Shown piece by piece: positions 11,515 to 41,486 of a stretch of DNA of 64,000 nucleotides. Numbering within the stretch: the stretch's first letter is position 1; each line of letters starts with the position of its first letter. The notes beneath the pieces are model-generated. The model was not told where the DNA came from, made no database searches, and was given only the letters and a program-made list of their open reading frames with translations. The translations under genes and the position numbers were made by a program. This stretch comes from an uncultured virus (IMG/VR IMGVR_UViG_3300011211_000002) (lineage: Duplodnaviria; Heunggongvirae; Uroviricota; Caudoviricetes), in IMG/VR virus record IMGVR_UViG_3300011211_000002; one strand, written 5' to 3'.

Positions 11515-11979
11515 ATGAACGAGACTGTTAAATTAGCACGTTATCGCAACACATCATATTTTGTTAAGTACACAGGAAATGGACAAGAAAGACAATACAC
11601 ATGGAGTGGAAGTAAAAATGGTCGTCCAGATATCAAGGTTGTCCCTCGTGAAGTGGTCGATTGGTTAACTATGAATACATCATGTTTTGATAAAGGACAA
11701 TTAGTAATTCAAGAAGATGATGTGATTGTAAATGAAATAAAAGACACTATTACTGAAGTAGATACTTATGAAAACAACACTAATACAAAGGAAGATATCG
11801 AGAAATTATTAGGCGGCAATATTAACAAACTTAAAGCCGAACTAAAGAAAATTACAGTTGATTCTGAAAAACAATTTGTAATTGATATCGCTTCTGATAT
11901 GAAAGAAAACTTAACAAAAGGTAAATTAGATGCTCTAGCTGAATGGATGGGAGTTAGCGCTGATATTCTATTTGATTAA
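11515..11979 (+). CDS. Virion morphogenesis protein (YonA-like)
   Basis: ORF with RBS AGGAGG; synteny. Confidence 0.55.
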
Positions 11980-11991
11980 GAGGTGGTATAA

Positions 11992-12390
11992 ATGAATACC
12001 ACTTTTGATGATGTGTGGAAATGTTTCTTGAATAACTGTAAAGTATCCGATATTGATTTACCTAATACGAATGAAAAAATTCACGAAGCAATTAAGAATG
12101 CGACTATGTACTTTAACAATAGAATGAGGACTTCTATTCAATGTAATACTGAAATCGAAGCTTTTAGCGTTGAATTATCAGAAGATCACCTTTTAATTCT
12201 AGCTAACTTTATTCGATTGACATTCTTAGTTAATCAACGTACATATTTTGAGTCATTATGGCAACCATTCGCTTCAGATGTTGGATTAAGAAATTTCGGC
12301 ACTCAAATAAACTCATTAAAAGCATCTGTTCAAGAGCAAGAAAAGAAGCTTGATATCTTAATTATTAATACAATGGAGGACTTTCTATGA
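11992..12390 (+). CDS. Head-tail adaptor-like protein
   Basis: ORF with RBS; synteny with SPbeta yomZ. Confidence 0.5.
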   Translation: MNTTFDDVWKCFLNNCKVSDIDLPNTNEKIHEAIKNATMYFNNRMRTSIQCNTEIEAFSVELSEDHLLILANFIRLTFLVNQRTYFESLWQPFASDVGLRNFGTQINSLKASVQEQEKKLDILIINTMEDFL

Positions 12391-28900: not shown

Positions 28901-31900
28901 TTTAGATGATCGAATTGCTGTGATGAAGGAAATATCCAGTCTATATCCTGACTTATTCGGTAAGGATGGAAAAGCAATTGCGCTATCAGAGGAAAAACGA
29001 AAAGCTATTGAAAAAGAAAGTAAAGCTTACGAGGTTCTTTTGAAGGCATATAAACTTGCTCGTGATGGAAAGCTTGATGCTGAACAAAAAGCAACCTTAG
29101 CCTCAGCAAGTGGTACTATTGCTCGTATTGAGAATATGAAAACTGAAATTCGTATGCTTGAAAAATATACTAGAGCTAATAATATCGCAGCTAAAGTAGC
29201 AGGTGCAATATCATTAGTAGCAGGCGTTGCTATGACTGCTCAACAAATTGCTGCTGAACAAGCATTATCAGGTTATAGAGCTGAATTAGATGGATTAATG
29301 GGTAGTCTGAATAATGATATTGGGAAAATAGAGTCATTCACGTCAGCTATAGAAAACTCTGACAAAGCGACCAAAGGTTCAAGTAAATCTCAAAAGGATA
29401 AAAATTCTACAACTAAAGATTCAATTTACATAACAGATAAGTATAAACAAGCCATTGAAGCCTTAAATCTTGAAATTGAAAAACAACAAAAATTACAAGC
29501 TAAGTATCCTGAGCATTCCAATGAATACCGTAAACATCTTGAGGCACAAATCAAACTTGAGAAAGAAAAATTAGCCTTACAAGAAAAGCAAGCTAAAGCT
29601 ATTCAATCACAAATTGCATCAGGTAAAATTCAGCAAACTGGTAATGTTTCCAGTAAGTCTTCTACCACGTCTACTTCAAATGCTAAAGTTAACGGATTTG
29701 GTGGACGAATTTCAAGTAACTATGGTCAACGTGGTGGAGAATTCCATCGAGGTGTAGACATCGCTTCCTCTCTTGGTAGCCGTCTTGACGCTCCAGTATC
29801 AGGTAAGGTAATTAAAGCAGGTGATGCAACTGCAAATGGTATGTCATGGACTTATGGAAACCTAGTTGTTGTCCAAGATGATTCAGGCGTAAAACATATC
29901 ATGGCTCATATGGATAAAGTGGTTGCAAAAATTGGAGATTATGTACAGGCAGGTACTCAAATTGGTACGGTTGGAAGTACAGGAAATTCTTCGGGACCCC
30001 ACGTACACTATGAACAAAATACGGCTAACGGTAAATTAATTGATCCAACATCATATGTAAATCAAGTACGTTCTGGTAAGGTTCAAGTAATGTCTACGGC
30101 AAATGGTGGTACTTCAACTGTAGATACATCTCAGCAAGCTATTGATCAAGCTAGATCGGATTTTTACGGAGTACAAAATGATGCACTAAATACTAGAGAA
30201 ATAATTAAAGATTTAAATGAAAAATTAGTCAAATCTAATATTGCTTATTATAACCATTTATCTGATGGTGTAGATCGTTCCATTAAGAAGTCTAATATCC
30301 TTGCCAACCAACAACTCGAACATTCTCAAGCTTATCGTAATGAATTAGAAAAAGAAACTAAGCACTTAGAATACAAGCAATCTCTATTACATAAAGAAGC
30401 AAACTTCATTCGTGAACAACTTAAACGTACTGACCTCTCCTCTGCTTTCAAAGTTGAATTAACAACTCAACTTAGTGAACTATCACTTTCTTGGTGGGAT
30501 GTTGAAGAAAGTATTAAAAGTGTAAATGAGCAGATTGAAAATAGTAAAATTGCAGAATTTGATAAAAAGATTGAAAGTCTTAACTATTCTATCTCTAAAT
30601 CAAATAAACTAATGGATATGTATGCTAAAGGTACAAAAGAATATAATGACGAGCAGAAGAAAATCATATCAACATTATACGAAAAACAAAAAGCATACGA
30701 GTCTGAAGCTGAAGCATTACGTAGATCAATTCAACTCGAAAAACTATCTATAAAAGAGATTGAGCGAAAAAAGGAACGTCTTAAGGAATTATCATCAGCG
30801 TGGCTTGATATTCAATCTGAAATTATCCGAATTAATTCGGAGATTGCTGATGAGTTAATTAACGCAATGAAAGATGCTTATGGTCAACAACGTGACTATG
30901 AAATAGCTCTAAAAGATAAGCAAATTGAAGATTTAGAGGAATTACGGGATGCTAGATTAAAAGCTCTTGATGAAGAAGGTAAAGCTTACGAAGAATCCAT
31001 GAAAGAACAAATGGACGCTTTGGATAAAGCTCATAAGGACAAGTTAGACAAACTAGATGAAGAATCCAAAGCATTTGAGGATGCTATTAATCGTCAACTT
31101 GAACTAATGAGAAAGCAACGTGATGAAGAGGATTTCAATAAAGATATTGGTAAGCTTCAGAAAGAAGAAGTTAGTATTGTTGCTAAGATTAATGAATTAT
31201 CGATGGATGATTCTAGAGAGGCAAAATTACAGCGCAAAAAGCTTGAAGAAGAATTAGCTAATATTCGTGAACAGATTGCTGATAAACAAAATGATAGACA
31301 ATATGAACTTCGTGAGCAGAATCTTCAAGATGAATTGGATGCTTATAAATCACAACAAGATGCAAAGAAAGAAACGGAAGATAATAATTACAATACGTCT
31401 AAAGAAGCTTTAGATGATCAGTTGGAGTTATATAAAAAAGAATTAGAAGCTAAGAAAAAGTTAGAAGAAGAAAAGTTCAAAGCTACTAAAGCTCAATTAG
31501 AAAGAGAACGTAAAGATATTGTTAATCATTATGATCAATTAATTAATAATGAACAAGAATATGCTAATTTACGTGCACAGATTATTAATGGTAGTGTTGA
31601 TGGAATGAGTGAAAAGCTGTCCACCTTCCTTGGCAATTTTAAAACCATGAATAAAGACTTAATTAATGAGCTAGGTATTAGTTGGCAAGAGTTAGAGAAT
31701 AAGATTTATAGAATTACTCAAGCTCAAGGAAGTCTTGGTAATGTATCTACACCTAGTCAAAATATTGACTTAAATGATGGTTCAATAATTGGTTCGAATC
31801 CTAACAATTCTTCATCTAATAATAACACTTCTAGGGATAATGCGTGGCAACAATACTTAGCTAATAAAAAAGCATGGGATTCCGCATCAGCAGCAGAAAA

Positions 31901-32324
31901 AGCACGTTTAAATAAAGAAAATGAAAAATTACGTAGTCAATGGGGATTCCAAGATGGATCATATGATTCACTAAAGAACCTCAAGAAATATCATAGTGGT
32001 GGTATTGTTGGTGGTAAAGGTAATAAATTAACAGAGCTTACTAACAAATTATTCAATACTAAGCCTAATGAAGAAACTGTACTTGCACTTAAACGTGAAT
32101 TGTATGTTCCAGAAAATAATGTATCAAATATGTTTACAAATATTCGAGCTGCCATGCCTAATTTCAAAGTAAACAGTCCTCAAGGTGGATCGATAAAAAT
32201 TGATAGTTTACTTTCTATAGATAGCGTTTCTCAGAATGCTAATTTAGACATAGCTAGATTGACTGATCAAGTTATGGATACATTAATTGATAAAATGAGA
32301 CCGTATGGATTCAATGTACGATAA
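25926..32324 (+). CDS. Tape measure protein with M23 peptidase domain (YomI/CwlP-like)
   Basis: TP901-type tape measure core, TM region, HRGVD and GNSSGPHVHYE M23 motifs, long coiled coils. Confidence 0.92.
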   Translation: MATKNPIALLMSLDINGSTSQQNVNQYVKSLKKYYDRNPLLISLGVNKGNLEKELNEISKIISKKQNEIKININSNNATKEMQELESQINKVIARLNELNARMRTSSSNGINSNIGNASTTSLSNSISQLQALNSNTQQSTSHFSNLQNAINNTGTSLNSVSNNANQAARSTNELGNAFSQAFTKFPIWLIASSSVFLPLQAMRDMTERVVELDSALISLQRVADAPLYQFEQTIEKSLVNVRELSGVTTEYLEILNEFARMDNTLTEALDLANTAQIFSNISDLNAKESVDALTAATLAFNISKEDSIRIADTLNELDNNYSITTRDLALSLNKAAQSSKTYGVSLEQLTSYTTAIGSATRESGNIIGNSLKTIFSRIGTLSKAQDALAEVGVSVRDSSGEMREVSEVIDELGNKWQNLSKEQQQNTLINVAGTYQQNRLSALMNNWSMAISANETALNSQGSAMREQEKYNESLEARLNRLSTSWTDFSSTVGDKVLYDGIIVVTSALETMTDSGNGVVSTIGLLPPAITVATVAVYAFSGSFRALVASTYASTSATMAATGATGIFSGALVGLKTVAGLATVALRGLAIATGIGVVFAVAGVAIEKLTKIISENIQKQEELDLYLEKNTTALSSNKEEVEKLIVQYNSLSDAKANDNTWDSTKEEEYLKVQQRLGEIFPALIASVDSTGQTHLKNKDAIEQEIKATEKLIEAQNKVTVNTAIEEFEKLNDEINGSWYDSLSNYVYGSLESRIKQQKQIIESMKKNGSDTSVQELELLQLEQLYQQASEKIKAKIFEVADAQSSLKIDSNISESLQNFVSSLDFSGFDNGQLKGFADEFGRIQEQIQKAINTDDAELYNKSIKSLNDLASASKGFDKELNSFTLSYEEFSNAIEKGQIKIVEGEVVIEDMANLMGSAANSVTDLSSKMKDFKDVTESMAGVSQSGVDALNDLVLQYDMLTYQLAGYTEQQLQDIYTKENLTTKEREVKKTLDDRIAVMKEISSLYPDLFGKDGKAIALSEEKRKAIEKESKAYEVLLKAYKLARDGKLDAEQKATLASASGTIARIENMKTEIRMLEKYTRANNIAAKVAGAISLVAGVAMTAQQIAAEQALSGYRAELDGLMGSLNNDIGKIESFTSAIENSDKATKGSSKSQKDKNSTTKDSIYITDKYKQAIEALNLEIEKQQKLQAKYPEHSNEYRKHLEAQIKLEKEKLALQEKQAKAIQSQIASGKIQQTGNVSSKSSTTSTSNAKVNGFGGRISSNYGQRGGEFHRGVDIASSLGSRLDAPVSGKVIKAGDATANGMSWTYGNLVVVQDDSGVKHIMAHMDKVVAKIGDYVQAGTQIGTVGSTGNSSGPHVHYEQNTANGKLIDPTSYVNQVRSGKVQVMSTANGGTSTVDTSQQAIDQARSDFYGVQNDALNTREIIKDLNEKLVKSNIAYYNHLSDGVDRSIKKSNILANQQLEHSQAYRNELEKETKHLEYKQSLLHKEANFIREQLKRTDLSSAFKVELTTQLSELSLSWWDVEESIKSVNEQIENSKIAEFDKKIESLNYSISKSNKLMDMYAKGTKEYNDEQKKIISTLYEKQKAYESEAEALRRSIQLEKLSIKEIERKKERLKELSSAWLDIQSEIIRINSEIADELINAMKDAYGQQRDYEIALKDKQIEDLEELRDARLKALDEEGKAYEESMKEQMDALDKAHKDKLDKLDEESKAFEDAINRQLELMRKQRDEEDFNKDIGKLQKEEVSIVAKINELSMDDSREAKLQRKKLEEELANIREQIADKQNDRQYELREQNLQDELDAYKSQQDAKKETEDNNYNTSKEALDDQLELYKKELEAKKKLEEEKFKATKAQLERERKDIVNHYDQLINNEQEYANLRAQIINGSVDGMSEKLSTFLGNFKTMNKDLINELGISWQELENKIYRITQAQGSLGNVSTPSQNIDLNDGSIIGSNPNNSSSNNNTSRDNAWQQYLANKKAWDSASAAEKARLNKENEKLRSQWGFQDGSYDSLKNLKKYHSGGIVGGKGNKLTELTNKLFNTKPNEETVLALKRELYVPENNVSNMFTNIRAAMPNFKVNSPQGGSIKIDSLLSIDSVSQNANLDIARLTDQVMDTLIDKMRPYGFNVR

Positions 32325-32385
32325 CAATTTAGAGGTGGAGCTTAGTCTCCCCCTCTTTTTTAATTTTAGGAGGTGGAATCATAAA

Positions 32386-33153
32386 TTGAGTTCAATTGAT
32401 TTTTATTATAATGGTAGGCATTCTTCAGAAATGGGAGTATGCATGGTTAACCTTAATAGTGGATTAACTAAATCAAACTATTTATCTAATAAGAAAATAA
32501 TATCTGAAAAAATAGCAGGAAATCCAATACCCTATGTATATGGATCTGAATACGAGCCATTAGAATATACTCTTACTTTGGCTTGTATAGACGGTGAAAG
32601 ATGGACTGATGCGAAACGTAGAGAGATTGCTATATGGTTAGATACTAATAATTTTGAGGAATTTTATACAGATGACGAACCAAACAGATACTATTATCTC
32701 CAATATCAAGGATTAGTTGAATTAAATCATAATGACGCTATGGATGGGTATGTAGAAGTTTCAATGATGAATGACTCCCCTTTTATCTACTCTCCATATC
32801 AAGAAAAACGATATGAGTTAACAACCATTACAACTCCTACGATTATTGAGTTTGATAATACTGGCGATGATTTAATTTATCCTGAAATGTGGATTTACCT
32901 TATAAATGATGGTGATTTTCAAATTAGAAACTTATCTAATGGTGGTAAGGATTTTAAATTCACGGGATTGGCTAATGCTGAAACTATTTATGTTGATAAC
33001 AAACATCATGATATTGAATCTGATATCACTCTCACCTATCGCTATGATAACTTTAACAACAATTACCTTGAGTTAGTAAGAGGAATTAATAGATTGGAAG
33101 TTACAGGAGCATGTAGTTTGACATTTAGATATCAATTCCAATTAAAAGGATAA
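32386..33153 (+). CDS. Distal tail (Dit-like) protein
   Basis: TTG start after AGGAGGT; directly after TMP; C-terminal L..G.N.L.V.G motif. Confidence 0.75.
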   Translation: MSSIDFYYNGRHSSEMGVCMVNLNSGLTKSNYLSNKKIISEKIAGNPIPYVYGSEYEPLEYTLTLACIDGERWTDAKRREIAIWLDTNNFEEFYTDDEPNRYYYLQYQGLVELNHNDAMDGYVEVSMMNDSPFIYSPYQEKRYELTTITTPTIIEFDNTGDDLIYPEMWIYLINDGDFQIRNLSNGGKDFKFTGLANAETIYVDNKHHDIESDITLTYRYDNFNNNYLELVRGINRLEVTGACSLTFRYQFQLKG

Positions 33154-33158
33154 AGGAG

Positions 33159-35048
33159 GTGTCTACCCTGTTAGGAATAATTGATAGATATAAAAAGCCT
33201 GAAAAGTCACGATTATATTTATGTAAACCAGATAGATCTACTATCGCTGAATTAACTGAAGCTTATAATAAAAACCTTTCAACTAATTACAATGGGATAC
33301 ATGAATTGTCATTTGATATTCCCTATCTGGTAAATCGTAATCATAAATATGTTCGAAATAAAAATGTCGATTTAATTCGTGGACATTACCTAATTCGCTA
33401 CGAACGTGGGAATGAAAAAGAGTATTTTATAATTATCAATCCTAAGAACACTACTAATAATGGTGTGGAAGTTAAGAATGTTCAATGCTACTTACTTCCT
33501 TATGAGCTTAATAAAAAGATTATTCGTGAGTTCAGTGGTACAAAACCCTTATATTTTGATGTTGGATCAGAAGGTGTTTTAAACGAAACCTTACTTGCTA
33601 AATCTGATTGGTCAGTTGGTTATATTGATGTAGATATCGCTCAAAAGCATCGAACTTTTGATGTTAGTGAACAAGGTTTAATTGAGTTTATTGGTGATTT
33701 ATCAGATCTATACGATGCGGTTATTGTTTGGGATACAGACAATAAGAAAATTAACTTTCATAAGAATGAAGACATTGGTGTAAATAAAGGATTATCTATT
33801 GAACATGGAAAGTATTTAAAGTCATTAGAAGAGAATCCAGACTTTGATTCTGTTGTTACAAGGCTTTATGTATATGGTAATGAAGGTATATCTTTTGCAA
33901 GTGTCAACCCTACAGGTGTCCCATTCATAGAGTCATTTGATTTCTATATGTACCCTTTTAAGCGTGATGATATTACCCGAGAAATAATAACACACTCAAA
34001 CTATATGACTGATTCACTATGTCATGCAATTCTTGATTACAATGCACTCCTTGACAGTAAACAAGGTGAATTTACAAATATGCTTGAACGTAAAAAACCA
34101 ATTCTAGAAACTTTACAAGGAAAGCAAAATGAACTATTTGTATTACAAACTCAATTAAATACTATCGAAGATGAATTAGCTGTTGCAAATGCGACAATGA
34201 AACCTACTGATGCACTCATAACACAAAAAATAAATAAATTAGCTGAGATTACAAGTAAAAATGGTGAAATAGAAATAGTCAAAGACTCTTTGCAGAGTAT
34301 TGATAATGAAATTACTGTATTGAAAAACACAATAGCAATTGAAAATAACTTTACTCGTGATCAAATTATTGAACGTGAAAAATTTGCAAATGAATTAGTT
34401 TGGTCTAATACAAGTATTTTTGAGGTTGACGATTTGTACGAAGAAGGTAAAAAGGAATTACTAAAAGTAAGTCAACCTCGTATCTCCTACTCTATTGATA
34501 TTGTAGACTTTTTAAATGTAACCAAATGTCAAAGGGATTGGGATAAATTAGTTTTAGGTGATTTAGTTACAATCAAATATCCTAATTTTGGAGTAGATGT
34601 TTTAGCTAAAATTATTTCAATTAAACATGCTGAAGATACAAATAGTTTAAGTATTGAAATTGCAAATGCCCATGATATTAAGAACGGATTTATGACACTG
34701 AAAGAGTTATTTAATCGTACTGTATCAAGCTCTACCACCCTAGATATGTCTAAGTTTAAATGGGATGAGACGACTAAAAATACAAATGAGATTGGTCAAA
34801 TCCTTAATGACACATGGTCGGCAATTGATAGAGAGATAAAAGCAGGAGTAAATGAAAGTGTAGATATTTCTAGAAAAGGCATTGTTATTACAGATCCTAA
34901 TGACCCAAAACGATTATTAGTAATGCAGCATGGTGTAGTCGGTTTATCTAATGATGGTGGTAATACGTTTAAACATGCAATTACACCTGAGGGAATCATT
35001 GGTGAAAAAGTTAAATATAAAAAAATCAAAGGAGTCTTCCATGTGTAG
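33159..35048 (+). CDS. Tail spike/baseplate hub (Tal/prophage endopeptidase-like), N-terminal part
   Basis: VVTRLYVYG, LGDLVTI motifs; ends just after GGNTFKHAITPEGIIGEK. Confidence 0.8.
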   Translation: MSTLLGIIDRYKKPEKSRLYLCKPDRSTIAELTEAYNKNLSTNYNGIHELSFDIPYLVNRNHKYVRNKNVDLIRGHYLIRYERGNEKEYFIIINPKNTTNNGVEVKNVQCYLLPYELNKKIIREFSGTKPLYFDVGSEGVLNETLLAKSDWSVGYIDVDIAQKHRTFDVSEQGLIEFIGDLSDLYDAVIVWDTDNKKINFHKNEDIGVNKGLSIEHGKYLKSLEENPDFDSVVTRLYVYGNEGISFASVNPTGVPFIESFDFYMYPFKRDDITREIITHSNYMTDSLCHAILDYNALLDSKQGEFTNMLERKKPILETLQGKQNELFVLQTQLNTIEDELAVANATMKPTDALITQKINKLAEITSKNGEIEIVKDSLQSIDNEITVLKNTIAIENNFTRDQIIEREKFANELVWSNTSIFEVDDLYEEGKKELLKVSQPRISYSIDIVDFLNVTKCQRDWDKLVLGDLVTIKYPNFGVDVLAKIISIKHAEDTNSLSIEIANAHDIKNGFMTLKELFNRTVSSSTTLDMSKFKWDETTKNTNEIGQILNDTWSAIDREIKAGVNESVDISRKGIVITDPNDPKRLLVMQHGVVGLSNDGGNTFKHAITPEGIIGEKVKYKKIKGVFHV

Positions 35049-35075
35049 ATTCCTTTTTTATTTGGTGGTGAAATA

Positions 35076-35999
35076 GTGTTAATTACCAAAAAAGTTATAA
35101 TGCGATGGAATAATAAGAATAAAAAGTATTATACAGAAAAAGGATATCATTATACGTTCATTAATGATGAGTTTGATGTTGATGTAAGTGATTTATCAAA
35201 AGGCAGTCATTGTAAAGTTGAAGTAATGTGTGATTATTGTTTAGACGGAAAGATTCAGAAAGAATATAGGATTTACTTAAAACAAAATGAAAAATCAATA
35301 ATTAAAAAAGATTGTTGTGAAAAATGTAAATCATTAAAGACAGCAGAAAGTAATTCATTGGTCTATGGAGTTGTAAATGTATTTCAAACTGAAGTAGTAA
35401 AGGACAAAACTAAGAAAACTTTAATGAGTAAGTATGGCATAGAAAACCCTTCTCAAATGGATGACTATAGGAAAAAATTCACACAAACATCTTTAAAAAG
35501 ATATGGAGTCCCTCATCCTTTCCAAAGTCAAATAGTAAAAGATAAGATAATTAAAACCACTATTAAACGTTACGGTTATAAAGTAGCCATCCAAAATCCA
35601 AAAATTAAAGAAAAAGCAATAAAAACATTATATAAGAATGGAAATGCTCCAGTATCATCTGAACAGTTGAAAATATTTGAAATGCTATCAGATGAAGGAT
35701 TTGATGTTGTTTTAAACTACCCTTTTAAAAATTTCAACTTTGATGTCGCTATTTTTAAAGATGATATAAAAATAGATTTGGAGTATGACTGTTGGTATTG
35801 GCATAAGAATAGACTTCAAATAGATAGACGTAGGGACGAAATATCCAAACAAAATGGTTGGAAAATAATACGTATAAAAAGCGCAAAACTCTTACCTACT
35901 ATTGAAGAATTAAAAGTTGAAATTGAAAAGATAATCAATACTGACAGAATGTTTACTCAAATAGTATTAGATGATTGGGGAGATAAGGAGGTTTCTTAA
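35076..35999 (+). CDS. Putative homing endonuclease (Zn-finger + KYG repeats + DUF559/Vsr-like nuclease)
   Basis: CDYC/CEKC, repeated (K/R)YG..P..., FDVA...IDLEYD.WYWH...D.RRD....GWKIIRI. Confidence 0.8.
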   Translation: MLITKKVIMRWNNKNKKYYTEKGYHYTFINDEFDVDVSDLSKGSHCKVEVMCDYCLDGKIQKEYRIYLKQNEKSIIKKDCCEKCKSLKTAESNSLVYGVVNVFQTEVVKDKTKKTLMSKYGIENPSQMDDYRKKFTQTSLKRYGVPHPFQSQIVKDKIIKTTIKRYGYKVAIQNPKIKEKAIKTLYKNGNAPVSSEQLKIFEMLSDEGFDVVLNYPFKNFNFDVAIFKDDIKIDLEYDCWYWHKNRLQIDRRRDEISKQNGWKIIRIKSAKLLPTIEELKVEIEKIINTDRMFTQIVLDDWGDKEVS

Positions 36000-37621
36000 T
36001 GAGTAATGTAACCGTGATTCAAACAAAAAATACAATTTACATGGGTTCTGATAGTGCAGTTTCAACAAAATTAAACAATAAGTATTATCGCATCGATACT
36101 AGTGGAAAAAAACTATTTACTTTTGATAATAAAGTAATATTCTGTTCAGGAAACCTTCTTCTTTCTTACACAATCATTGAAGAGTTTAAAAAACAACCAT
36201 TTAAGGATATTAAAACTTTAAGAGAAATTGCTTCGCATTATTATCATGTATATAAAATAAATGAAGCATGTGAAGGTTTTGACTTGGATATTTTAATTGG
36301 TGAGGCATTTAATGATCATACGATAGTATATCAAATTTCACCTTACTATAACTTTGAAATTATTGAAAGTGTAATAAGTAACACTGAAGAAGTTGCAATT
36401 ATAACTGGTGGAATAAAAACTCAGGAATCATTTGATTTAGCATATGAAAAATTATTATCTCAAATGAAAATAGAAGATTTATATCAATCTATATTTAATC
36501 AACTTTCAGATGAGACAATTGGTGGTACTTTAAAAGTATTAAAGATAACAAAACCCCAAATTATTGAGTTACTTGACTCCCCTATCGTTGAGAAATTGAA
36601 TTTAAAATTACTTAATGATTTTGTTGAAACAAACAAGCATTTAATCATCGGAGAAAGAATCATTGGTAAGCTTCTTCTTGGTGAGAAATTAATCATTGGT
36701 GATAGCAACGGTACTTTCACAATCAATGGCAATTTGTTAACTATTCAAGATTTGAACGAAAAGCCACGAGTTAAATTAGGCGAGTATTCAAAAGGAAAAT
36801 ACGGATTGCAGTTATTCGATAAGACTGGTAATCAAGTTGTTTTAGATGAAGATGGAATGCTGCAAACATGGCAAGAAGGAAGAACTGATAATGTGGACGG
36901 ATATCATCCCCTTACACTCTATGTGTATATTCCTGAACAAACCTTATCAATAAAAAAAGCACTACTTAGGTTTAAATTATTGGAGTTCAGAGCATATAGT
37001 CAAACAACTGAATCAGGTGGTGGTACATACTCTTCCACTAGTTCAGGTGGTGGCACGTATGGTTCTACAGGTTCTGGAGGCGGTACATATGGCTCAACTG
37101 ATAGTGGTGGAGGTACATACTCATCTACTGATGGTGGAGGTAATGCAATTGTTACATCTGGCAATAGTGGCATTGATGTTATATATGGAACTGGACAAAC
37201 TGATCCGTCATCAGGTCACAGTCATACATATAGAACTGTAGAAGGTCATAAACACAATATTACCCTACCATCTCATACACATTCATTCTCAGTCCCATCT
37301 CATTATCATACTGTCAATATACCCTCCCACTCTCATACAGTAGATATACCTTCTCATTCGCATTCGTTTTCTGTACCTGCTCACTCTCACCCTATATCTC
37401 ATGGGATTTATAAGAGTACTACAGCTAGACAAATATCTATACATATCAATGGTATAAATAGAGATTATGAGTTAGGTGGTAAATTTAATATTGATAAATT
37501 TAACTTGAACATCACTCCATACCTAATTAAAGGACAATGGAATGTGATTGATTTATACAGTAGTCAATTAGGAAGATTAGATGCAACGGTGTTTATTCAA
37601 GCATTAATGGGTCACGAATAA
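35999..37621 (+). CDS. Fusion: N-terminal Ntn-hydrolase/proteasome-beta-like domain + C-terminal tail spike portion with Gly-rich and His-rich repeats
   Basis: Starts M-S-NVTVI....IYMGSDS..S, K..., CSG; after about residue 215 switches to IIGERIIGKLLLGE tail-type sequence, GGGTY repeats and HxH repeats. Confidence 0.65.
   Translation: MSNVTVIQTKNTIYMGSDSAVSTKLNNKYYRIDTSGKKLFTFDNKVIFCSGNLLLSYTIIEEFKKQPFKDIKTLREIASHYYHVYKINEACEGFDLDILIGEAFNDHTIVYQISPYYNFEIIESVISNTEEVAIITGGIKTQESFDLAYEKLLSQMKIEDLYQSIFNQLSDETIGGTLKVLKITKPQIIELLDSPIVEKLNLKLLNDFVETNKHLIIGERIIGKLLLGEKLIIGDSNGTFTINGNLLTIQDLNEKPRVKLGEYSKGKYGLQLFDKTGNQVVLDEDGMLQTWQEGRTDNVDGYHPLTLYVYIPEQTLSIKKALLRFKLLEFRAYSQTTESGGGTYSSTSSGGGTYGSTGSGGGTYGSTDSGGGTYSSTDGGGNAIVTSGNSGIDVIYGTGQTDPSSGHSHTYRTVEGHKHNITLPSHTHSFSVPSHYHTVNIPSHSHTVDIPSHSHSFSVPAHSHPISHGIYKSTTARQISIHINGINRDYELGGKFNIDKFNLNITPYLIKGQWNVIDLYSSQLGRLDATVFIQALMGHE
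37013..37142 (+). repeat. Degenerate 30-bp tandem repeat encoding SGGGTY(S/G)ST units
   Basis: Four to five units visible in DNA and protein. Confidence 0.75.
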
Positions 37622-37650
37622 TAATTACATAAAATATAAATATTATTTAA

Positions 37651-37842
37651 ATGGAGGAAGTTATGGATACTATCAAAGTGATTTTACAAAATAACAAAGA
37701 CTTTGTAACACAAGTAGAAAATTATAACGCATTAGAATTAACAAAATCAATCAGTAACTCCGAAAGTGTTATCGTACAAATAGGCGATATCATTGTTAAT
37801 AAACATCATATCGAATGCATTCACAAAGTAACTAATCAATAG
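37651..37842 (+). CDS. Small tail-associated protein
   Basis: RBS GGAGG; 63 aa or shorter. Confidence 0.55.
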   Translation: MEEVMDTIKVILQNNKDFVTQVENYNALELTKSISNSESVIVQIGDIIVNKHHIECIHKVTNQ

Positions 37843-37882
37843 AGGGTTAGTTACTTTTTTTATTTTATAAAGGAGGTAACTT

Positions 37883-40594
37883 ATGAAAAGATATGAAGGT
37901 AGTCCTGCTATAGTTATCGAACGAAGAAAAGGTACACCTGACTCCCCTTTCAGTGACATGAATGAAACCCTTGTTGTTGCAGGAGATGGTAAAGTAGTAT
38001 TGTCTGAAATTCCTAACGAATTAAATCGAGTTATTGTAACATCAGATGACAATATAACTTGGTATGAAATTACAAATGGTCAAGTTCCTTTAAATGGCTT
38101 TAAAGTAGACTACATAAATAAATTAGTAACTTTTAATATTGCTCATGTAGGTAAACAACTTCATTTTAAATATTTTGGAGAAGGAAACCATTATTATAGT
38201 CTACATTCTATATATACAAAATTAGAGAAAGGTTCAGTTGTCGAAACACTAGGTGATCTAATCGAAAATGGTACTGGCGCATTAGACGCTTTAGATAAAT
38301 TAGATGAAAAATTAAATGAAGTTAATCAAGCTACAAATAATGCAATTACAGTAACTAATGATGCTAGAGATATAATCAATGAAGGAAATCAGGTTATCAA
38401 TACTGTAAATAATAAGATTACAGAAATTGATAACAAAAATGATGAAGCAACATCAAAAATTTTAGAATTAGACTCAAAATTAGATGAAGCGAGAACCACT
38501 ATAGCCGATGTTCAACAAAAATCTAATATAGTGGATGGTATTATTACAGACGGTCAAACTGTCATTGATAATGTCCAGACCCTTATAGATGAAGTTAAGT
38601 CAGTAGGAGAGTTTAATTTAACAAGCTTTTATAAAAAGAATAACACTGTCTTAAATAATGGTTCAACTTGGATAGCATTACAAGATACTCAAAATAACCC
38701 CCTCCCAATCTTACCAGTAACAGAAAATACATATTGGAGACTGACTGCGTTACATGGTTTAAAAGGAGATAAAGGAGAAACAGGTACAGCCTTAAGTATT
38801 TTAGGAAAACTAACAGATGTAACACAATTGCCTCCTACTGGTCAAGCAGGTGACGGTTACACTGTAAATGGAGAATTATATGTCTGGTCTGAAAATACTA
38901 ATGCTTGGGAAAATGTAGGCAACATCAAGGGAGAAAAAGGCGATAAAGGTGAAATTGGTGAAGATGGAAGATCAGCATATGAGGTTGCTGTAGATAATGG
39001 ATTTGTTGGTACGATTGAAGATTGGTTTGCGTCTCTAAAAGGAGAAAGAGGAGACAAAGGACAGGATGCAGATTTAACAGATGTTAATCAAGAAATAGCG
39101 AACTTACAACAAACAGTTACAGATAACAAATTAGAAGTAAATAAGTATTTTGAAAATAGTACCAAAATATTTATTAATGCTGCAAATCCTCCTGCGCCTC
39201 TGAATAGTATGAAGTTTGACGAACAAACAGATGACACTGTAGCATTACAGAACATAATTAATTACTTAGAAACCAAAGGTGGAGGATCAATTCTCTTTCC
39301 TCAAGGAATATCATTAATTTCCTCTAAAATTGTAATTAAGAAACCGATATTTCTTATTGGTCAAGGAAAAGGCGGAAACTCTGATAACACAAATGGTTCA
39401 GGAATCGGCAACACTACGTTTAGATGGTCTACTTTACAATCAGGTACAATGTTTGAATTTGTTTCCGAAACGCCATCAAGTACCTTATTTGACGGAGGAA
39501 TGTCAAACATTTTATTAGATGGTGGAAGTACTGCCACAAGAGGTTTCAAATGTAAAAGTTGTGGATATATGGATTTCAAATCAATCGAAGGTCGTAGCTT
39601 TGTATCTGAATTAGGATTAATTGACGATAGCAATGGAGTCCTTTCCCAGTTTAATCGATTTGAAGATATAAAATATGTTTATGGTGCAGGAGTAGATACT
39701 CAAAACTCACATGGCTTAGTGTTTCACGGAGTTTCTGAAATTGGAGTAACTCAAAATCATATTATAAGTATTACTGGTTTAATGCATAGTGGTTATTTAT
39801 TAGTATTCAAAACTTCAGATAATAATGTAGTTGAAAAATGTCATAGTGCCACTATAGGTACAGGTGGTTCAATATGGTTTGCAAATGGTATCTATTCTGA
39901 TAGTCATTTAATTAATTATCTTGTAGGTAGAGTTAAATCTGACTCTATGGCAAAAGGAAATAGAATAGTTCATTGGAATTCCGAAGGTGGAGGGCTAGAT
40001 ATAACAGAAGGAAGCGTTATCCACTATGAGGTATATGATTATTACCAATGTAATTTATTCACTACGAGAAAGTATATCATGACTGATCAAAAAAACTTAA
40101 CAATTGGTGATTTTGATATTGTTGATGGAGGAGCAATCAAAGGAATCGCAGCAAATCAATGGTCATGTATAAACCTTCCTGATAATGCAACAGATTCTAG
40201 AATATCCTGTATAGTACCACCAGAATACGAATGGTATGATGGTACTATTAACACTCTTAGAATCAGATTTTCACAAGACAGTGAAAACTCAGGAGGACGC
40301 TTTAGAATTACCATAAAGGCATCGACCTCTTCGAATAATGGAGGTGTTCATTTACTTGAATATGATGCTTCAACTCTAGTACCTGCTAACACATTTCCAT
40401 ACACCAATCAACACATTGATATTCCTATTAATTTAGAATATAAAAAAGACGATTTAATTTTAATTAGTATTACACGTAATGGTTCACATACAGAAGATAC
40501 TGCCATTGGCAATATGCAAATAATAGGTGCACAACTGATTTATAATTCCGTAGGACCCAATTCTAGTGGATCTGGATCTTACCCTATCAGATAA
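37883..40594 (+). CDS. Tail fibre/receptor-binding protein with collagen-like segments and pectate-lyase-like beta-helix
   Basis: GxKGDKG repeats; DDTVALQNII....GG.ILFPQG motif. Confidence 0.8.
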   Translation: MKRYEGSPAIVIERRKGTPDSPFSDMNETLVVAGDGKVVLSEIPNELNRVIVTSDDNITWYEITNGQVPLNGFKVDYINKLVTFNIAHVGKQLHFKYFGEGNHYYSLHSIYTKLEKGSVVETLGDLIENGTGALDALDKLDEKLNEVNQATNNAITVTNDARDIINEGNQVINTVNNKITEIDNKNDEATSKILELDSKLDEARTTIADVQQKSNIVDGIITDGQTVIDNVQTLIDEVKSVGEFNLTSFYKKNNTVLNNGSTWIALQDTQNNPLPILPVTENTYWRLTALHGLKGDKGETGTALSILGKLTDVTQLPPTGQAGDGYTVNGELYVWSENTNAWENVGNIKGEKGDKGEIGEDGRSAYEVAVDNGFVGTIEDWFASLKGERGDKGQDADLTDVNQEIANLQQTVTDNKLEVNKYFENSTKIFINAANPPAPLNSMKFDEQTDDTVALQNIINYLETKGGGSILFPQGISLISSKIVIKKPIFLIGQGKGGNSDNTNGSGIGNTTFRWSTLQSGTMFEFVSETPSSTLFDGGMSNILLDGGSTATRGFKCKSCGYMDFKSIEGRSFVSELGLIDDSNGVLSQFNRFEDIKYVYGAGVDTQNSHGLVFHGVSEIGVTQNHIISITGLMHSGYLLVFKTSDNNVVEKCHSATIGTGGSIWFANGIYSDSHLINYLVGRVKSDSMAKGNRIVHWNSEGGGLDITEGSVIHYEVYDYYQCNLFTTRKYIMTDQKNLTIGDFDIVDGGAIKGIAANQWSCINLPDNATDSRISCIVPPEYEWYDGTINTLRIRFSQDSENSGGRFRITIKASTSSNNGGVHLLEYDASTLVPANTFPYTNQHIDIPINLEYKKDDLILISITRNGSHTEDTAIGNMQIIGAQLIYNSVGPNSSGSGSYPIR

Positions 40595-40700
40595 CCTACT
40601 TAAAAGTTTGGTTAATTGTTGTATTATAACGAAAATATTCCACTTAATAAGATTATATGTTATTTTATATATAATAAGTAATAAGGGGTGGAAAGAAATA

Positions 40701-41486
40701 ATGGAAAGTTTTACTAAAGTTAATAATACAGTTAGGTATGGTCATTATACTAAAATTTATGATAATGTGGAAATTGGTAACAATGTAGAAATCGGAGAAT
40801 TCACAATTATCTACCCAAACGTAGTGATTAAAGATAACACTAAAATAGGTAGTCATTGTATCATTGGTGAACCTACAGCTAGTTATTATGAAGATTCGAA
40901 AAATCATCAGTTCAAAACTACGATAATCGGAGAAAATTCTATTATTCGTTCAAATTCTATCATTTATGAAGATGTTAAAATAGGTGATAATTTCCAAAGT
41001 GGACATCGAGTAACTATAAGAGAACAATCTGAAATTGGTAATAATTGTAGCGTGGGAACACTTTGTGATCTACAAGGGAAATTAAAAATCGGTAATTTTG
41101 TTCGATTACATTCCAATGTTCATATTGGGCAAATGTCTAATATTGAGGACTATGTATGGATTTATCCGTATGTAGTACTTACTAATGATCCATATCCTCC
41201 TATGGGCGTTTTAAAAGGAGTAACAATTCGTAAGTTTGCTCAGGTAGCTACATCATCTGTTGTGATGCCGGGGGTAGAGATTGGTGAAAATGCATTGATT
41301 GGTGCTCAATCATTAGTAAGAAAAGATGTTCCTGCTGAAAGAGTGATTGTAGGTGTTCCAGGAAAAGATATTTGCTCTGTACGAGATTTAAAAGATGATA
41401 AAGGTAATCAGATATATCCATGGAAAGAGCACCTTAAGGATTTTAGAGGTTATCCATGGCAAAGAGAAGAAGATTTTGAAGTTTAA
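40701..41486 (+). CDS. Hexapeptide-repeat (left-handed beta-helix) acyltransferase
   Basis: Repeated [IV]G.N..IG, TND.YPP, VGVPGK motifs. Confidence 0.88.
   Translation: MESFTKVNNTVRYGHYTKIYDNVEIGNNVEIGEFTIIYPNVVIKDNTKIGSHCIIGEPTASYYEDSKNHQFKTTIIGENSIIRSNSIIYEDVKIGDNFQSGHRVTIREQSEIGNNCSVGTLCDLQGKLKIGNFVRLHSNVHIGQMSNIEDYVWIYPYVVLTNDPYPPMGVLKGVTIRKFAQVATSSVVMPGVEIGENALIGAQSLVRKDVPAERVIVGVPGKDICSVRDLKDDKGNQIYPWKEHLKDFRGYPWQREEDFEV

What the first reader, a model, noticed from the sequence alone, without database searches (positions are those of the whole stretch)
33159..37621. Tail spike gene split by an endonuclease + Ntn-hydrolase cassette with duplicated IIGE(K/R) junction: possible protein-ligating, intein-analogous mobile element
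Seen in sequence: the 629-aa tail protein ends ...GGNTFKHAITPEGIIGEK (IIGEK at 34995-35009) plus a short 12-aa tail. Next comes a homing-endonuclease-like ORF, then an ORF whose first ~215 aa begin M-S-NVTVIQTKNTIYMGSDSAVS and which switches at KHLIIGERIIGKLLLGEKL (IIGER at 36644-36658) to tail-type sequence. Joining the two at IIGE gives AITPEGIIGERIIGKLLLGE, which reads like the continuous motif I recall from uninterrupted tail proteins of related phages (from memory, unverified). The ~1.65 kb insert is almost entirely coding, so it has no room for a group I/II intron core, and it has no intein C1/HN ends. Established: an N-terminal Ser/Thr followed by a beta-strand and an xDS motif is the Ntn-hydrolase/proteasome-beta pattern, and the archaeal proteasome-beta homolog Connectase performs sequence-specific transpeptidation. 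Inference: the Ntn domain may cleave both chains at the shared motif and re-ligate them, or at least release itself from the distal half, so the endonuclease can home into an essential gene.
Basis: partly seen in the sequence, partly recalled or inferred. Interest (0 to 1): 0.88.

Follow-up and report, generated by a model that had tools for sequence, protein, structure and literature searches.

The report
Proteasome-like domain in split tail gene
A phage tail-tip gene is cut in two by a selfish DNA cassette carrying a homing endonuclease and a proteasome-like enzyme domain that may join or dock the two protein halves again, a job so far known only from inteins.

Summary
A YomG/Tal-like tail gene is split into a 629-aa proximal ORF and a 540-aa distal ORF, with a 307-aa homing-endonuclease ORF between them and a duplicated IIGE(K/R) junction. 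Uninterrupted orthologues read straight through the motif.

The first ~205 residues of the distal ORF fold as a proteasome-beta-type Ntn domain (AF2 pLDDT 84; Z 19.6 to 20S beta, 11.0 to Connectase). Ser2 aligns with the mature Thr1/Ser1. S2, D18, K38 and G51 are conserved in at least 90% of 131 diverse relatives.

The domain family has 530 clusters, and in the 150 best hits it always sits at the extreme N-terminus of tail-fibre proteins. Twelve distinct loci show the same three-gene layout. In one pair of contigs with 94% identical flanks, 1,948 bp of cassette replace 72 bp of an uninterrupted gene, so the cassette is mobile.

It is neither an intron nor an intein. The closest known architecture is the "fractured gene", with an Ntn domain where the split intein would be. 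Orphan Ntn-fibre genes in Paenibacillaceae islands are an unexplained extra.

The parts
33159..35048 (+). ORF1: proximal half of a YomG/Tal-like tail-tip protein (629 aa)
   Evidence: Pfam YOMG_N E 1.6e-31 and Prophage_tail E 6.3e-20. phrog_6211 minor tail protein E 8.8e-196, profile positions 4-632 of 1168. It is 32-35% identical over 98% of its length to uninterrupted Tal proteins of Tsamsa, BcoS-136 and Sundance.
34995..35045 (+). Junction motif copy 1 (IIGEK, 34995-35009) plus a 12-aa C-terminal tail. This is a diverged duplicate of the native sequence that resumes in ORF3, and it is the proposed recognition segment and leaving group.
   Evidence: Sequence read. It aligns to the same Tsamsa residues as the ORF3 motif. 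Eleven ORF1 tails from other loci share G[IV][IVC]x[ED][KR]+hydrophobic, then 8-14 further residues before the stop.
35076..35999 (+). ORF2: free-standing homing-endonuclease-like gene (307 aa). It has an N-terminal Cys-rich region, KYG..NP repeats (DUF7487) and a C-terminal Vsr-like/PD-(D/E)xK-type nuclease region.
   Evidence: phrog_12131 'homing endonuclease' E 2.4e-29. DUF7487 E 1.4e-17 is above cut-off. MTES_1575 (33.5 bits, cut-off 38.2) and DUF559 (17.2 bits, cut-off 20.6) are below cut-off. Homologues in L022, L024 and L025 pass the DUF559 cut-off. Homologues sit at the same place in 11 other loci.
35999..36613 (+). Proteasome-beta-like Ntn domain (ORF3 residues 1 to ~205). The putative nucleophile is Ser2, which becomes residue 1 after Met removal. 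D18, K38 and G51 are conserved.
   Evidence: AF2 mean pLDDT 84.4, pTM 0.80. All Foldseek hits listed are 20S beta subunits, E ~1e-9. VIA Z 19.6 to 20S beta, 17.4 Anbu, 14.6 HslV, 14.3 BPH, 11.0 Connectase, with model residue 2 aligned to chain residue 1. Conservation is shown.
36614..36643 (+). Flexible linker between the Ntn domain and the native tail sequence (ORF3 residues ~206-215)
   Evidence: pLDDT is below 50 for residues 211-227 in the AF2 model. Length and sequence vary in the family alignment.
36644..37621 (+). Distal half of the tail protein. It starts with junction motif copy 2 (IIGER, 36644-36658), followed by GGGTY repeats and His-x-His repeats.
   Evidence: ORF3 residues 213-295 match phrog_6211 positions 617-705. 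Residues 254-537 match phrog_4311, E 1.7e-58. The start aligns to Tsamsa gp223 602-631 and Sundance gp039 815-888.

Best explanation
This is a mobile 'fractured-gene' cassette in the tail-tip (Tal/YomG-like) gene of a large SPbeta-like siphophage.

**The cassette.** It consists of:
- a short, diverged copy of the target sequence ending in a stop codon;
- translationally coupled to it, a proteasome-beta-type Ntn domain fused in frame to the rest of the tail gene.

The endonuclease spreads the cassette into uninterrupted alleles at a conserved motif ([IV][IV][GA][ED][RK]..G) that marks the border between the conserved hub half and the variable fibre half. Mobility and architecture are shown. Endonuclease activity is inferred.

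**What the Ntn domain most likely does.** It is probably the price of admission, re-attaching the distal half to the proximal half after translation. The mechanism I think most likely runs as follows (inferred, not shown):
1. Methionine aminopeptidase exposes Ser1.
2. The domain binds the duplicated motif and tail at ORF1's C-terminus.
3. Ser1 attacks the bond after the acidic residue and releases the 9-15-residue tail.
4. As in Connectase, the acyl group moves to the enzyme's own alpha-amino group.

This gives one covalent chain: hub, then Ntn domain, then fibre. A second transfer onto the motif copy behind the Ntn domain would excise the domain, giving true splicing. That is possible but less likely.
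For: **Split and duplication.**

**Mobility.**
- L019 and L020 are ~131-kb viral contigs with 94% identical flanks. 1,948 bp (tail remnant + endonuclease + Ntn domain + motif) in L019 replace 72 bp of an uninterrupted 2,178-aa gene in L020. L021 is also uninterrupted.
- L015 and L016 have Ntn domains 94% identical, but their proximal halves are only 49% identical.
- The endonuclease is decaying in 2 of 12 loci (L015 frameshift, L026 134-aa remnant), while the Ntn domain stays intact.

**Ntn fold and active site.**
- In 131 diverse relatives G51, G175 and G176 are invariant, and M1, S2, D18, R31, K38, F48 and G138 are at least 90% conserved. These match Thr1/Ser1, Asp17, Lys33 and Gly47 of the proteasome-like family as given in PMC8665760 (passage read).

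**A free N-terminus seems required.**
- In all 150 best hits of 530 family clusters the domain begins at protein residue 1-15.
- 131 of 157 proteins start [MLVI]-S.
- 6 of 12 loci use ATT/ATC/ATA start codons behind a strong ribosome-binding site, so that Ser stays at codon 2.

**Coupled to the split.** The five uninterrupted orthologues examined lack the domain.

**Precedent.**
- Connectase is a proteasome homologue that forms an amide between its N-terminal Thr/Ser and the substrate, binding mainly ~13 residues after the scissile bond. M. jannaschii Connectase uses Ser1 (PMC7980362, passages read).
- ORF1 tails after the acidic residue are 9-15 aa long.
Against: - No result here shows binding, cleavage or ligation. 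The complex predictor was unavailable.
- The default activity of proteasome-like proteins is hydrolysis.
- The domain resembles 20S beta subunits (Z 19.6) much more than Connectase (Z 11.0). It keeps the H1/H2 helices that Connectase lacks.
- The acidic-basic pair in ORF1 tails is not universal: 8 of 11 tails have it, and L015 has S-K, L024 E-N and L025 E-Y.
- In the AF2 monomer the cis linker and motif are disordered and do not dock in the cleft.
- Other split phage genes work without any joining domain, for example the intein-less SbcD-like case in PMC2677866.
- Orphan Ntn-fibre genes occur in genomes where no proximal half was found. The domain therefore has some role that does not need a resident partner.
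Confidence: 0.42

Rival explanations
1. Non-covalent adaptor. The Ntn-like domain, with or without trimming the ORF1 tail or cutting itself off, holds the distal half on the hub by binding ORF1's C-terminal strand in its substrate groove. No new peptide bond is formed.
For: - Split phage genes can function as non-covalent pieces, such as the intein-less fractured SbcD-like gene (PMC2677866).
- Proteasome-type grooves bind peptides as beta-strands; Connectase binds its substrate with nanomolar affinity (PMC7980362).
- The ORF1 tail is kept in all 11 loci where it could be read.
Against: - A pure adaptor need not keep S2, D18, K38 and G51 at 90% or more across 131 diverse members.
- It need not sit at the extreme N-terminus in all 150 best hits.
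- It need not use rare ATT/ATC/ATA starts to keep Ser at codon 2.
Confidence: 0.22
2. Virion-borne hydrolase. The Ntn domain is a tail-tip peptidase acting on the host envelope or on host proteins at infection. The gene is split only because an Ntn enzyme needs a free N-terminus, and the endonuclease is merely the vehicle.
For: - Hydrolysis is the usual activity of the proteasome-like family (PMC8665760).
- Tal proteins often carry lytic domains (established knowledge, recalled).
- Orphan Ntn-fibre genes work without a resident proximal half.
Against: - Relatives with 94% identical flanks manage without the domain (L020, L021).
- This reading leaves unexplained how the fibre half stays on the tail.
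- It also does not explain why a duplicated target segment is kept at ORF1's end in all 11 tails read.
Confidence: 0.15
3. Full intein-like trans-splicing. Both motif copies are cleaved, ORF1(...IIGE) is joined to (RIIG...) of ORF3, and the Ntn domain plus the 12-aa tail are released.
For: - Both chains carry the motif.
- Connectase recombines any two substrates that carry its motif, by a ping-pong mechanism (PMC7980362).
- In L015 both copies share the unusual variant VVGSK..GEI.
Against: - This needs two ordered reactions by an enzyme whose own N-terminus is the nucleophile and which is itself part of the second substrate.
- Connectase-type exchange is an equilibrium, giving about 50% product (PMC11961121, abstract seen in the listing).
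- In several loci the two motif copies differ markedly, for example L013 IIKDK versus LIGER and L019 TDRIVS versus ADVLIG.
Confidence: 0.12
4. Nothing special at the protein level: an intron, an intein, a pseudogene, or an old gene fission with a chance ORF.
For: None beyond the bare fact of an interruption.
Against: - No Rfam match at E up to 1 in 32000-39000, and the insert is coding except for 27 nt.
- No Hint/intein Pfam hit at E up to 0.1.
- The 215-codon domain is conserved in 530 clusters and folds with confidence.
- Presence/absence polymorphism exists between contigs with 94% identical flanks.
Confidence: 0.03

Closest known systems
'Fractured genes' (Dassa et al. 2009, NAR, PMC2677866; abstract and passages read)
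   Same: [quoted passage not shown] In about half of the published loci that endonuclease is Vsr-like. The arrangement is found mainly in phages. The paper also reports an intein-less example with short extra residues at the break.
   Different: There the break is flanked by split-intein halves on both pieces, and the hosts are DNA-metabolism enzymes. Here no Hint domain is present. Only the downstream piece carries an added domain, that domain is a proteasome-type Ntn fold, and the host is a structural tail protein.
Connectase (MJ0548/M. mazei; Fuchs et al. 2021 PNAS, PMC7980362; passages read)
   Same: It has a proteasome-like Ntn fold and an N-terminal Thr or Ser exposed by Met removal. It makes a covalent amide between its own N-terminus and the part of a substrate upstream of a short motif. 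It recognises mostly ~13 residues after the scissile bond.
   Different: - It is archaeal, free-standing and multi-turnover, with a KDPGA motif in MtrA.
- It lacks helices H1/H2 and has a two-helix lid.
- The phage domain keeps H1/H2, is closer to 20S beta (Z 19.6 versus 11.0), and is fused to its presumed second substrate.
- Ligase activity of the phage domain is untested.
Proteasome-like cluster 'FC4' (Fuchs, Alva, Lupas 2021 Bioinformatics, PMC8665760; passages read)
   Same: [quoted passage not shown] It has 62 sequences in nr90 and no assigned function. It is very probably the same family.
   Different: I could not compare sequences, because the representative accession was not retrievable with these tools. 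The paper showed no model for FC4. In the passages I read it mentions no homing endonuclease, no split tail gene and no joining role. Its supplements and Mendeley alignments were not seen.
Homing-endonuclease 'genes in pieces' and the T4 mobA/gene 60 cassette
   Same: A free-standing endonuclease inserts into an essential phage gene and splits it. In T4 the cassette brings an accessory element (the 50-nt bypass) that mitigates the damage.
   Different: The mitigation there is non-covalent assembly or translational bypass, not an added enzyme domain.

Membership tests
Proteasome-like (Ntn) family | Alpha-beta-beta-alpha sandwich with the proteasome-beta strand/helix order | tested here: met
   AF2 pLDDT 84.4. 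All Foldseek rows shown are 20S beta subunits, E ~1e-9, TM 0.5-0.65. VIA Z 19.6, rmsd 2.6 Å over 176 residues.
Proteasome-like (Ntn) family | Thr/Ser nucleophile at the mature N-terminus | tested here: met
   Model residue 2 (Ser) aligns to chain residue 1 of beta5i, Anbu, HslV, BPH and Connectase. S2 is at least 90% conserved in 131 sequences. 131 of 157 proteins start [MLVI]S. Removal of Met before Ser is established knowledge, not tested here.
Proteasome-like (Ntn) family | Asp17, Lys33 and Gly47 equivalents | tested here: inconclusive
   D18 and K38 are at least 90% conserved and G51 is invariant. Their equivalence to Asp17/Lys33/Gly47 is inferred from spacing and from the family description. 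I could not read the model coordinates.
Proteasome-like (Ntn) family | Match to Pfam PF00227 | tested here: not met
   The window protein has no hit. Only 1 of 13 relatives (E 7e-4) and 1 of 66 (E 6.4e-5) reach it. The relationship rests on fold, not on the Pfam model.
Connectase | Loss of helices H1/H2 and a two-helix lid between S3 and S4 | tested here: not met
   The model has helices 53-65 and 71-88 at the H1/H2 position. Only 139 residues align to 6zw0, Z 11.0.
Connectase | Sequence-specific transpeptidase activity through an N-terminal amide intermediate | not testable with these tools
Intein / split intein | Hint domain blocks on both sides of the break, with Cys/Ser at +1 and a terminal Asn | tested here: not met
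   No Hint or intein Pfam hit in ORF1, ORF2 or ORF3 at E up to 0.1. ORF1 has only 12 residues after the motif, and these are homologous to host sequence.
Group I/II intron | Structured RNA core | tested here: not met
   No Rfam family at E up to 1 in 32000-39000. Only 27 non-coding nt lie within the insert.
Fractured gene (Dassa 2009) | [quoted passage not shown] | tested here: met
   The same is seen in 11 further loci.
Fractured gene (Dassa 2009) | Split-intein halves at the break | tested here: not met
   See the intein row. An Ntn domain stands on the downstream side only.
Vsr-like / DUF559 homing endonucleases | Vsr-type nuclease domain | tested here: inconclusive
   - Window ORF2: DUF559 17.2 bits (cut-off 20.6) and MTES_1575 33.5 bits (cut-off 38.2).
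- Homologues L022, L024 and L025 pass DUF559 with 24.6-27.8 bits.
- No PDB sequence match.
- That DUF559 is Vsr-related is recalled.
Vsr-like / DUF559 homing endonucleases | Site-specific cleavage of the uninterrupted allele | not testable with these tools
   Indirect support only, from the presence/absence polymorphism of L019 versus L020.
FC4 proteasome-like cluster | Sequence membership in the published cluster | not tested
   The description fits, but the representative sequence could not be fetched.

The most novel reading that the evidence does not exclude
The Ntn domain is a single-turnover protein ligase carried by a homing element. It would be the first non-intein module that lets selfish DNA live inside an essential gene by re-joining the broken protein, using Connectase-like chemistry on its own N-terminal serine.

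A corollary concerns the orphan Ntn-fibre genes in Paenibacillaceae defence and mobile islands. These could graft their own fibre onto the tail-tip protein of an incoming phage, cutting it at the same conserved motif. That would be tail hijacking by a satellite, or sabotage as a defence.
Probability: 0.35. Interest if true: 0.92.

Novelty: new variant of a known kind. Interest (0 to 1): 0.8.

Why it matters
Homing endonucleases can persist inside essential genes only if the gene product is restored. The known solutions are self-splicing introns, inteins, split inteins, and tolerated non-covalent pieces. Here a different protein domain, a proteasome-type Ntn enzyme, stands exactly where a split intein would stand, and it is common (530 sequence clusters).

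If it joins the halves, three things follow:
- It would be a new class of protein-joining mobile element.
- It would be a natural, genetically encoded, sequence-specific ligase for structural proteins, which is of interest as a tool alongside Connectase, sortase and split inteins.
- It would give a function to an orphan branch of the proteasome-like family.

The cassette also sits at the hub/fibre border of tail-tip proteins, so it could drive exchange of host-range modules. Even if the domain only docks or hydrolyses, the strict coupling of endonuclease, Ntn domain and split tail gene is a new and testable architecture.

Tried and rejected
**Searches that found nothing**
- Megablast of the region against 50,697 phage records: no match.
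- Rfam scan: no match, so an intron is rejected.
- Pfam: no intein domain, so an intein is rejected.
- Profile of the Ntn domain against PDB sequences: only chance-level hits, E at least 0.26, none proteasomal. The fold search was needed to place it.
- ORF2 against PDB sequences: nothing.
- Other copies of ORF1, ORF2 or ORF3 in the 64-kb window: none.
- The search of earlier findings by sequence: nothing.
- ESM Atlas: only unnamed clusters, one with PF00227 on 12% of members. This is a weak lead.

- Complex prediction (ORF1 C-terminus + Ntn domain): not available. Binding is therefore untested.
- The window's own assembly is not held. The nearest record, G001/L005, is a 97-99% identical provirus with the same layout.
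- The search for related loci failed three times for lack of a conserved stretch. It worked with a four-sequence alignment.
- Two family scans exceeded the size limit and were repeated on 66 of the 131 sequences.
- L017 matched only 25 residues of a fibre and was dropped.

**Literature**
- The 2026 Perkons phage paper (PMC13245101) was searched for ORF185-187, mass spectrometry and tail fiber: no virion proteomics of these genes.
- Three searches found no paper linking a proteasome-like domain to a split tail gene: homing endonuclease / tail fiber / split / phage; proteasome / tail fiber / Ntn / phage; Connectase. Only the FC4 remark in PMC8665760 comes close.

**Considered and dropped**
- TAG read-through from ORF1 into ORF2. 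They share a frame in the window and in L013, but not in L019, L022 or L025, so I attach no meaning to it.

Full report
**1.

The region holds three co-oriented ORFs:

| ORF | Coordinates | Length |
|---|---|---|
| ORF1 | 33159-35048 | 629 aa |
| ORF2 | 35076-35999 | 307 aa |
| ORF3 | 35999-37621 | 540 aa |

- ORF1 ends ...HAITPEGIIGEK plus 12 residues. IIGEK lies at 34995-35009.
- ORF3 reads ...KHLIIGERIIGKLLLGEKL..., with IIGER at 36644-36658.
- Only 27 nt between ORF1 and ORF2 are non-coding.
- ORF3's ATG overlaps ORF2's stop (TAATG) and follows an AAGGAGG ribosome-binding site.
- G+C is 0.26-0.29 across ORF2 and the first part of ORF3, against 0.30-0.34 in ORF1 and up to 0.41 in the distal half.

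**2. It is one tail gene in two pieces**

ORF1 carries YOMG_N (E 1.6e-31) and Prophage_tail (E 6.3e-20). It follows a tape-measure ORF and a Dit-like ORF, so it is the Tal/YomG-type tail-tip protein.

PHROG profile phrog_6211 (1168 positions) is matched by both ORFs:
- ORF1 residues 3-625 match positions 4-632.
- ORF3 residues 213-295 match positions 617-705.

The two ORFs are therefore consecutive parts of one family, with about 15 positions present in both.

tblastn with ORF1 found 109 phage records, 96 of them covering at least 80% of it. I opened three of these:
- Tsamsa gp223 (887 aa)
- BcoS-136 gp217 (888 aa)
- Sundance gp039 (1610 aa)

All three are single ORFs. Tsamsa reads ...KPDGIVAERLIGQIIAGENLILTNSAGTFTF... 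ORF1 aligns up to ...IKG, and ORF3 aligns from IIGER onward, to that same stretch. Sundance residues 815-888 align to ORF3 residues 216-287.

**3. Not an intron, not an intein**

Rfam gave no match at E up to 1 in 32000-39000. Pfam gave no Hint or intein domain in any of the three ORFs at E up to 0.1.

**4. ORF2 is a homing-endonuclease-type gene**

- phrog_12131 'homing endonuclease', E 2.4e-29.
- DUF7487, E 1.4e-17, above cut-off.
- Weak, sub-threshold hits to MTES_1575 and DUF559 in the C-terminal region.
- Three homologues from other loci pass the DUF559 cut-off.

Five homologues share a Cys-rich N-terminal region, a variable number of KYG..NP repeats and, in four of the five, the same C-terminal nuclease region. 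L013 has a different C-terminus. No PDB sequence matched.

**5. The N-terminal ~205 residues of ORF3 are a proteasome-beta-type Ntn domain**

*Model.* An AF2 model built from a 13-sequence alignment has mean pLDDT 84.4 and pTM 0.80. Its strand/helix order is bbbbbb-aa-bbbb-aa-bb, and the linker (residues 211-227) is disordered.

*Foldseek.* At least 500 PDB matches at E up to 0.001. Every row shown is a 20S proteasome entry (E ~1e-9, TM 0.5-0.65).

*VIA-align against 48,161 representative chains*:

| Match | Z |
|---|---|
| 20S beta | 19.6 (rmsd 2.6 Å, 176 aligned) |
| Anbu | 17.4 |
| HslV | 14.6 |
| BPH | 14.3 |
| Connectase 6zw0 | 11.0 (139 aligned) |

More distant Ntn hydrolases score 7-12. 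In the alignments to beta5i, Anbu, HslV, BPH and Connectase, model residue 2 pairs with chain residue 1, so Ser2 occupies the nucleophile position.

*Sequence methods barely see the relationship.* PF00227 is reached by 1 of 13 relatives and 1 of 66. The profile found no proteasome among PDB sequences.

**6. The domain defines a large, unannotated family that is always N-terminal**

A profile search of 1.84 billion representative proteins found the following:

| E-value threshold | Clusters |
|---|---|
| up to 1e-3 | 530 |
| up to 1e-10 | 424 |
| up to 1e-30 | 159 |

- In all 150 listed hits the domain starts at residue 1-15 of the protein. The other 380 were not listed.
- Of 157 stored proteins, 131 start [MLVI]-S. 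Of the other 26, most are gene calls that begin at an internal Met or a few codons upstream of an I-S or M-S. One has Thr at position 2.
- In an alignment of 131 diverse members, G51, G175 and G176 are invariant. M1, S2, D18, R31, K38, F48 and G138 are at least 90% conserved. The 66-sequence subset agrees.
- This pattern corresponds to the Thr1/Ser1, Asp17, Lys33 triad and the Gly47 oxyanion hole named for the proteasome-like family in PMC8665760 (passage read). The residue-by-residue mapping is my inference.
- The parts after the domain are tail modules. Among 66 members, the named PHROG families hit are tail fibre, tail spike, minor tail, tail protein and virion structural protein. The list also includes phrog_4311, labelled 'minor head protein', and one phosphodiesterase. 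Nine of the 66 carry the Peptidase_S74 fibre chaperone.
- The source databases call them hypothetical proteins or, for two UniRef entries, 'Prophage tail endopeptidase domain-containing protein'.

**7. The three-gene layout recurs**

It is present in 12 distinct loci:
- the window, and its 97-99% identical provirus L005/L007
- Psychrobacillus phage Perkons
- metagenome contigs L012, L013 (= L014), L015 and L016
- viral contigs L019 and L022-L026

In L012 only the end of the proximal half is on the contig.

The endonuclease is intact in 10 of the 12 loci. It is frameshifted in L015 and reduced to 134 aa in L026, while the Ntn domain stays intact in both.

The proximal halves span very different Tal lineages. 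Pairwise identity runs from 19% to 49%, and those of L019, L022 and L024 have no Pfam match.

In 6 of the 12 loci ORF3 starts at ATT, ATC or ATA directly after the endonuclease stop. Each has a GAGGTG-type ribosome-binding site and Ser as codon 2. Gene callers had truncated several of these.

**8. The cassette is mobile**

L019 and L020 are viral contigs of about 131 kb whose flanks are 94% identical.
- L020 has one 2,178-aa gene.
- L019 has an 814-aa proximal ORF, a 401-aa endonuclease ORF and a 1,165-aa Ntn-fibre ORF.
- Homology stops at L019:4711 / L020:5966 and resumes at L019:6660 / L020:6039. So 1,948 bp replace 72 bp.

The 24 codons of L020 (RGLFNGQEKYGVWCDVLVGDIVAS) have two diverged descendants in L019:
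- the ORF1 tail, KMNINEQDCYGICTDRIVSCSLGGDISLC-stop
- the segment behind the Ntn domain, ...HFVVADVLIGDLIAG

L021, with 90% identical flanks, is also uninterrupted.

The tail remnant is far more diverged than the flanks. This suggests it arrived with the cassette and destroys the target site (inference).

Further incongruence comes from other pairs:
- L015 and L016 have Ntn domains 94% identical, but proximal halves only 49% identical.
- L013 against L015/L016 gives 68% for the Ntn domain and 30-35% for the proximal half.

**9. The duplicated junction is a constant feature**

Eleven ORF1 tails could be read:

| Locus | ORF1 tail |
|---|---|
| window | GIIGEKVKYKKIKGVFHV |
| Perkons | GVIGEKMYCKKIGGMMNACI |
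| L013 | GIIKDKIKCSIINF |
| L015 | GVVGSKIVGEIIKIIY |
| L016 | GVINEKIISKIIKKFISLI |
| L019 | GICTDRIVSCSLGGDISLC |
| L022 | GICTEKLFVKNFEEVNLC |
| L023 | GIITEKISNIVVSDFKELKV |
| L024 | GICCENAIFDYIEEVELC |
| L025 | GSVLEYIKFKIIKL |
| L026 | GIVKEKLYMNAVKFKTQRME |

- Eight of the eleven have an acidic residue followed by Lys or Arg. The exceptions are L015 (S-K), L024 (E-N) and L025 (E-Y).
- In L019 the basic residue replaces the Val of the uninterrupted allele.
- From the residue after the acidic one to the stop, the tails are 9-15 residues long.

**10. How it most likely works**

*Shown:*
- the split
- the duplicated junction
- the Ntn fold
- the conserved putative catalytic residues
- the obligatory N-terminal position of the domain
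- the linkage to an endonuclease gene
- mobility

*Inferred:* the domain restores the link between hub and fibre.

The argument is one of economy. A start codon and ribosome-binding site alone would make a free distal half, and the intein-less fractured SbcD-like gene in PMC2677866 does just that. Yet all 12 loci carry a 200-residue enzyme domain with an intact active-site pattern. Its position is fixed so that Ser follows the initiator.

Connectase shows that a proteasome-type enzyme can do three relevant things (PMC7980362, passages read):
- use its N-terminal Thr or Ser to cleave a short motif, passing the acyl group to its own amino group to form a stable amide-linked conjugate
- recognise mostly the ~13 residues after the scissile bond
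- avoid hydrolysis

Transferred to this case, the domain would capture ORF1 at the acidic-basic bond, release the 9-15-residue tail, and yield one chain. I rate this, or a closely related covalent outcome, at about 0.4.

*Against a covalent outcome:*
- there is no direct evidence
- the domain resembles hydrolytic beta subunits more than Connectase
- the motif is imperfectly conserved
- the cis linker is disordered in the model

The complex predictor was not available.

**11. What is known**

- *Fractured genes.* The architecture is that of 'fractured genes' (PMC2677866), with an Ntn domain in place of split-intein halves.
- *Earlier sighting of the fold family.* Fuchs, Alva and Lupas listed a Firmicute cluster 'FC4' whose C-terminal domains resemble phage tail proteins. 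They showed no model and assigned no function (PMC8665760). I could not confirm by sequence that FC4 is this family.
- *Literature searches.* Three full-text searches found no paper connecting such a domain with a homing endonuclease or a split tail gene. The Perkons paper has no proteomics of these genes.

**12. An unexplained extra: orphans**

Five genomic or proviral loci encode about 1,010-1,071-aa proteins made of the Ntn domain plus a region 62-69% identical to Sundance Tal residues 815-1610:
- L006, Paenibacillus tianmuensis by the cluster name
- L008, L010 and L011, three Paenibacillus species
- L009, Cohnella soli

That region starts exactly at the motif. None has a proximal half or a DUF7487 endonuclease upstream.

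Their neighbours are recombinases, AEP-type primases, NUMOD4-HNH endonucleases (3 of 5, on the opposite strand), AbiH, Hachiman, Mrr and Schlafen-like genes.

A search of the four host genomes with Sundance residues 1-814 found no proximal half. The single weak hit (E 2.2e-6) is to an inserted domain in a 1,993-aa ORF.

The orphans are 53-77% identical to each other over their full length. Being intact across species, they look functional.

A sixth orphan of a different subfamily lies in viral contig L018.

Whether these are satellite or defence genes that act on the tail protein of an incoming phage is speculation. It follows naturally from the capture mechanism.

**13. Verdict**

The cassette is a new variant of the fractured-gene kind. 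Its protein-level mechanism is open and directly testable.

Noticed in passing
L006:7001-10213; L008:7001-10033; L009:7001-10024; L010:7001-10033; L011:7001-10027: Orphan Ntn-fibre genes (Ntn domain plus 62-69% identity to Sundance Tal residues 815-1610) sit alone in Paenibacillus and Cohnella islands. Their neighbours are recombinases, AEP primases, NUMOD4-HNH endonucleases, AbiH, Hachiman and Mrr. No proximal tail half was found in 4 host genomes.
   Followed up: partly
L018:10698-11420: In the viral contig that holds the orphan P0085, a 241-aa ORF begins MTVVISYVSDSFSIIATDTRV. By eye this looks like another proteasome-like N-terminus (Thr2..TDTR). It has no Pfam hit at E up to 1e-4.
   Followed up: no
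L012:1685; L013:6182; L015:6055; L016:4555; L025:6001; L026:6001: The Ntn-fibre ORF starts at ATA, ATT or ATC directly after the endonuclease stop, behind a strong ribosome-binding site and with Ser as codon 2. Gene callers therefore truncated several family members.
   Followed up: partly
L013:5198-6178; L015:4757-6054; L026:5585-5986: Variation in the endonuclease. L013 keeps the shared N-terminal region but has a different C-terminal part with no Pfam hit. L015 is frameshifted. L026 is an internally deleted 134-aa remnant.
   Followed up: partly
L015 and L016: The Ntn domains are 94% identical, while the proximal tail halves are only 49% identical. This points to lateral exchange at the junction. 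L015 also has a second copy of the endonuclease homologue at 11653-12317.
   Followed up: partly
window 36990-37400: The distal half has GGGTY(S/G)ST repeats followed by about eight His-x-His repeats (PSHSHT-like), and G+C rises to 0.41. By recall, HxH repeats bind metal ions in trimeric phage fibres. Not tested.
   Followed up: no
L004:4766-5347 (Sundance gp039 residues ~256-450): The uninterrupted Sundance Tal has an insertion of about 190 aa in its proximal half relative to ORF1. A weak match to this insertion occurs in a 1,993-aa Paenibacillus ORF (L030).
   Followed up: no
window 35046-35078; L013:5162-5200: ORF1 and the endonuclease ORF are in the same frame, separated by one stop codon, in the window and in L013. 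This is not so in L019, L022 or L025, so it is probably without meaning.
   Followed up: partly
window 25926-32324: The 2,132-aa tape-measure ORF contains a stretch that by eye resembles an M23 peptidase motif (HRGVDIA ... HVHYE). Not tested.
   Followed up: no
window 40566-41486: A 306-aa ORF downstream of the 903-aa fibre-like ORF looks by eye like a hexapeptide-repeat acyltransferase. Not tested.
   Followed up: no
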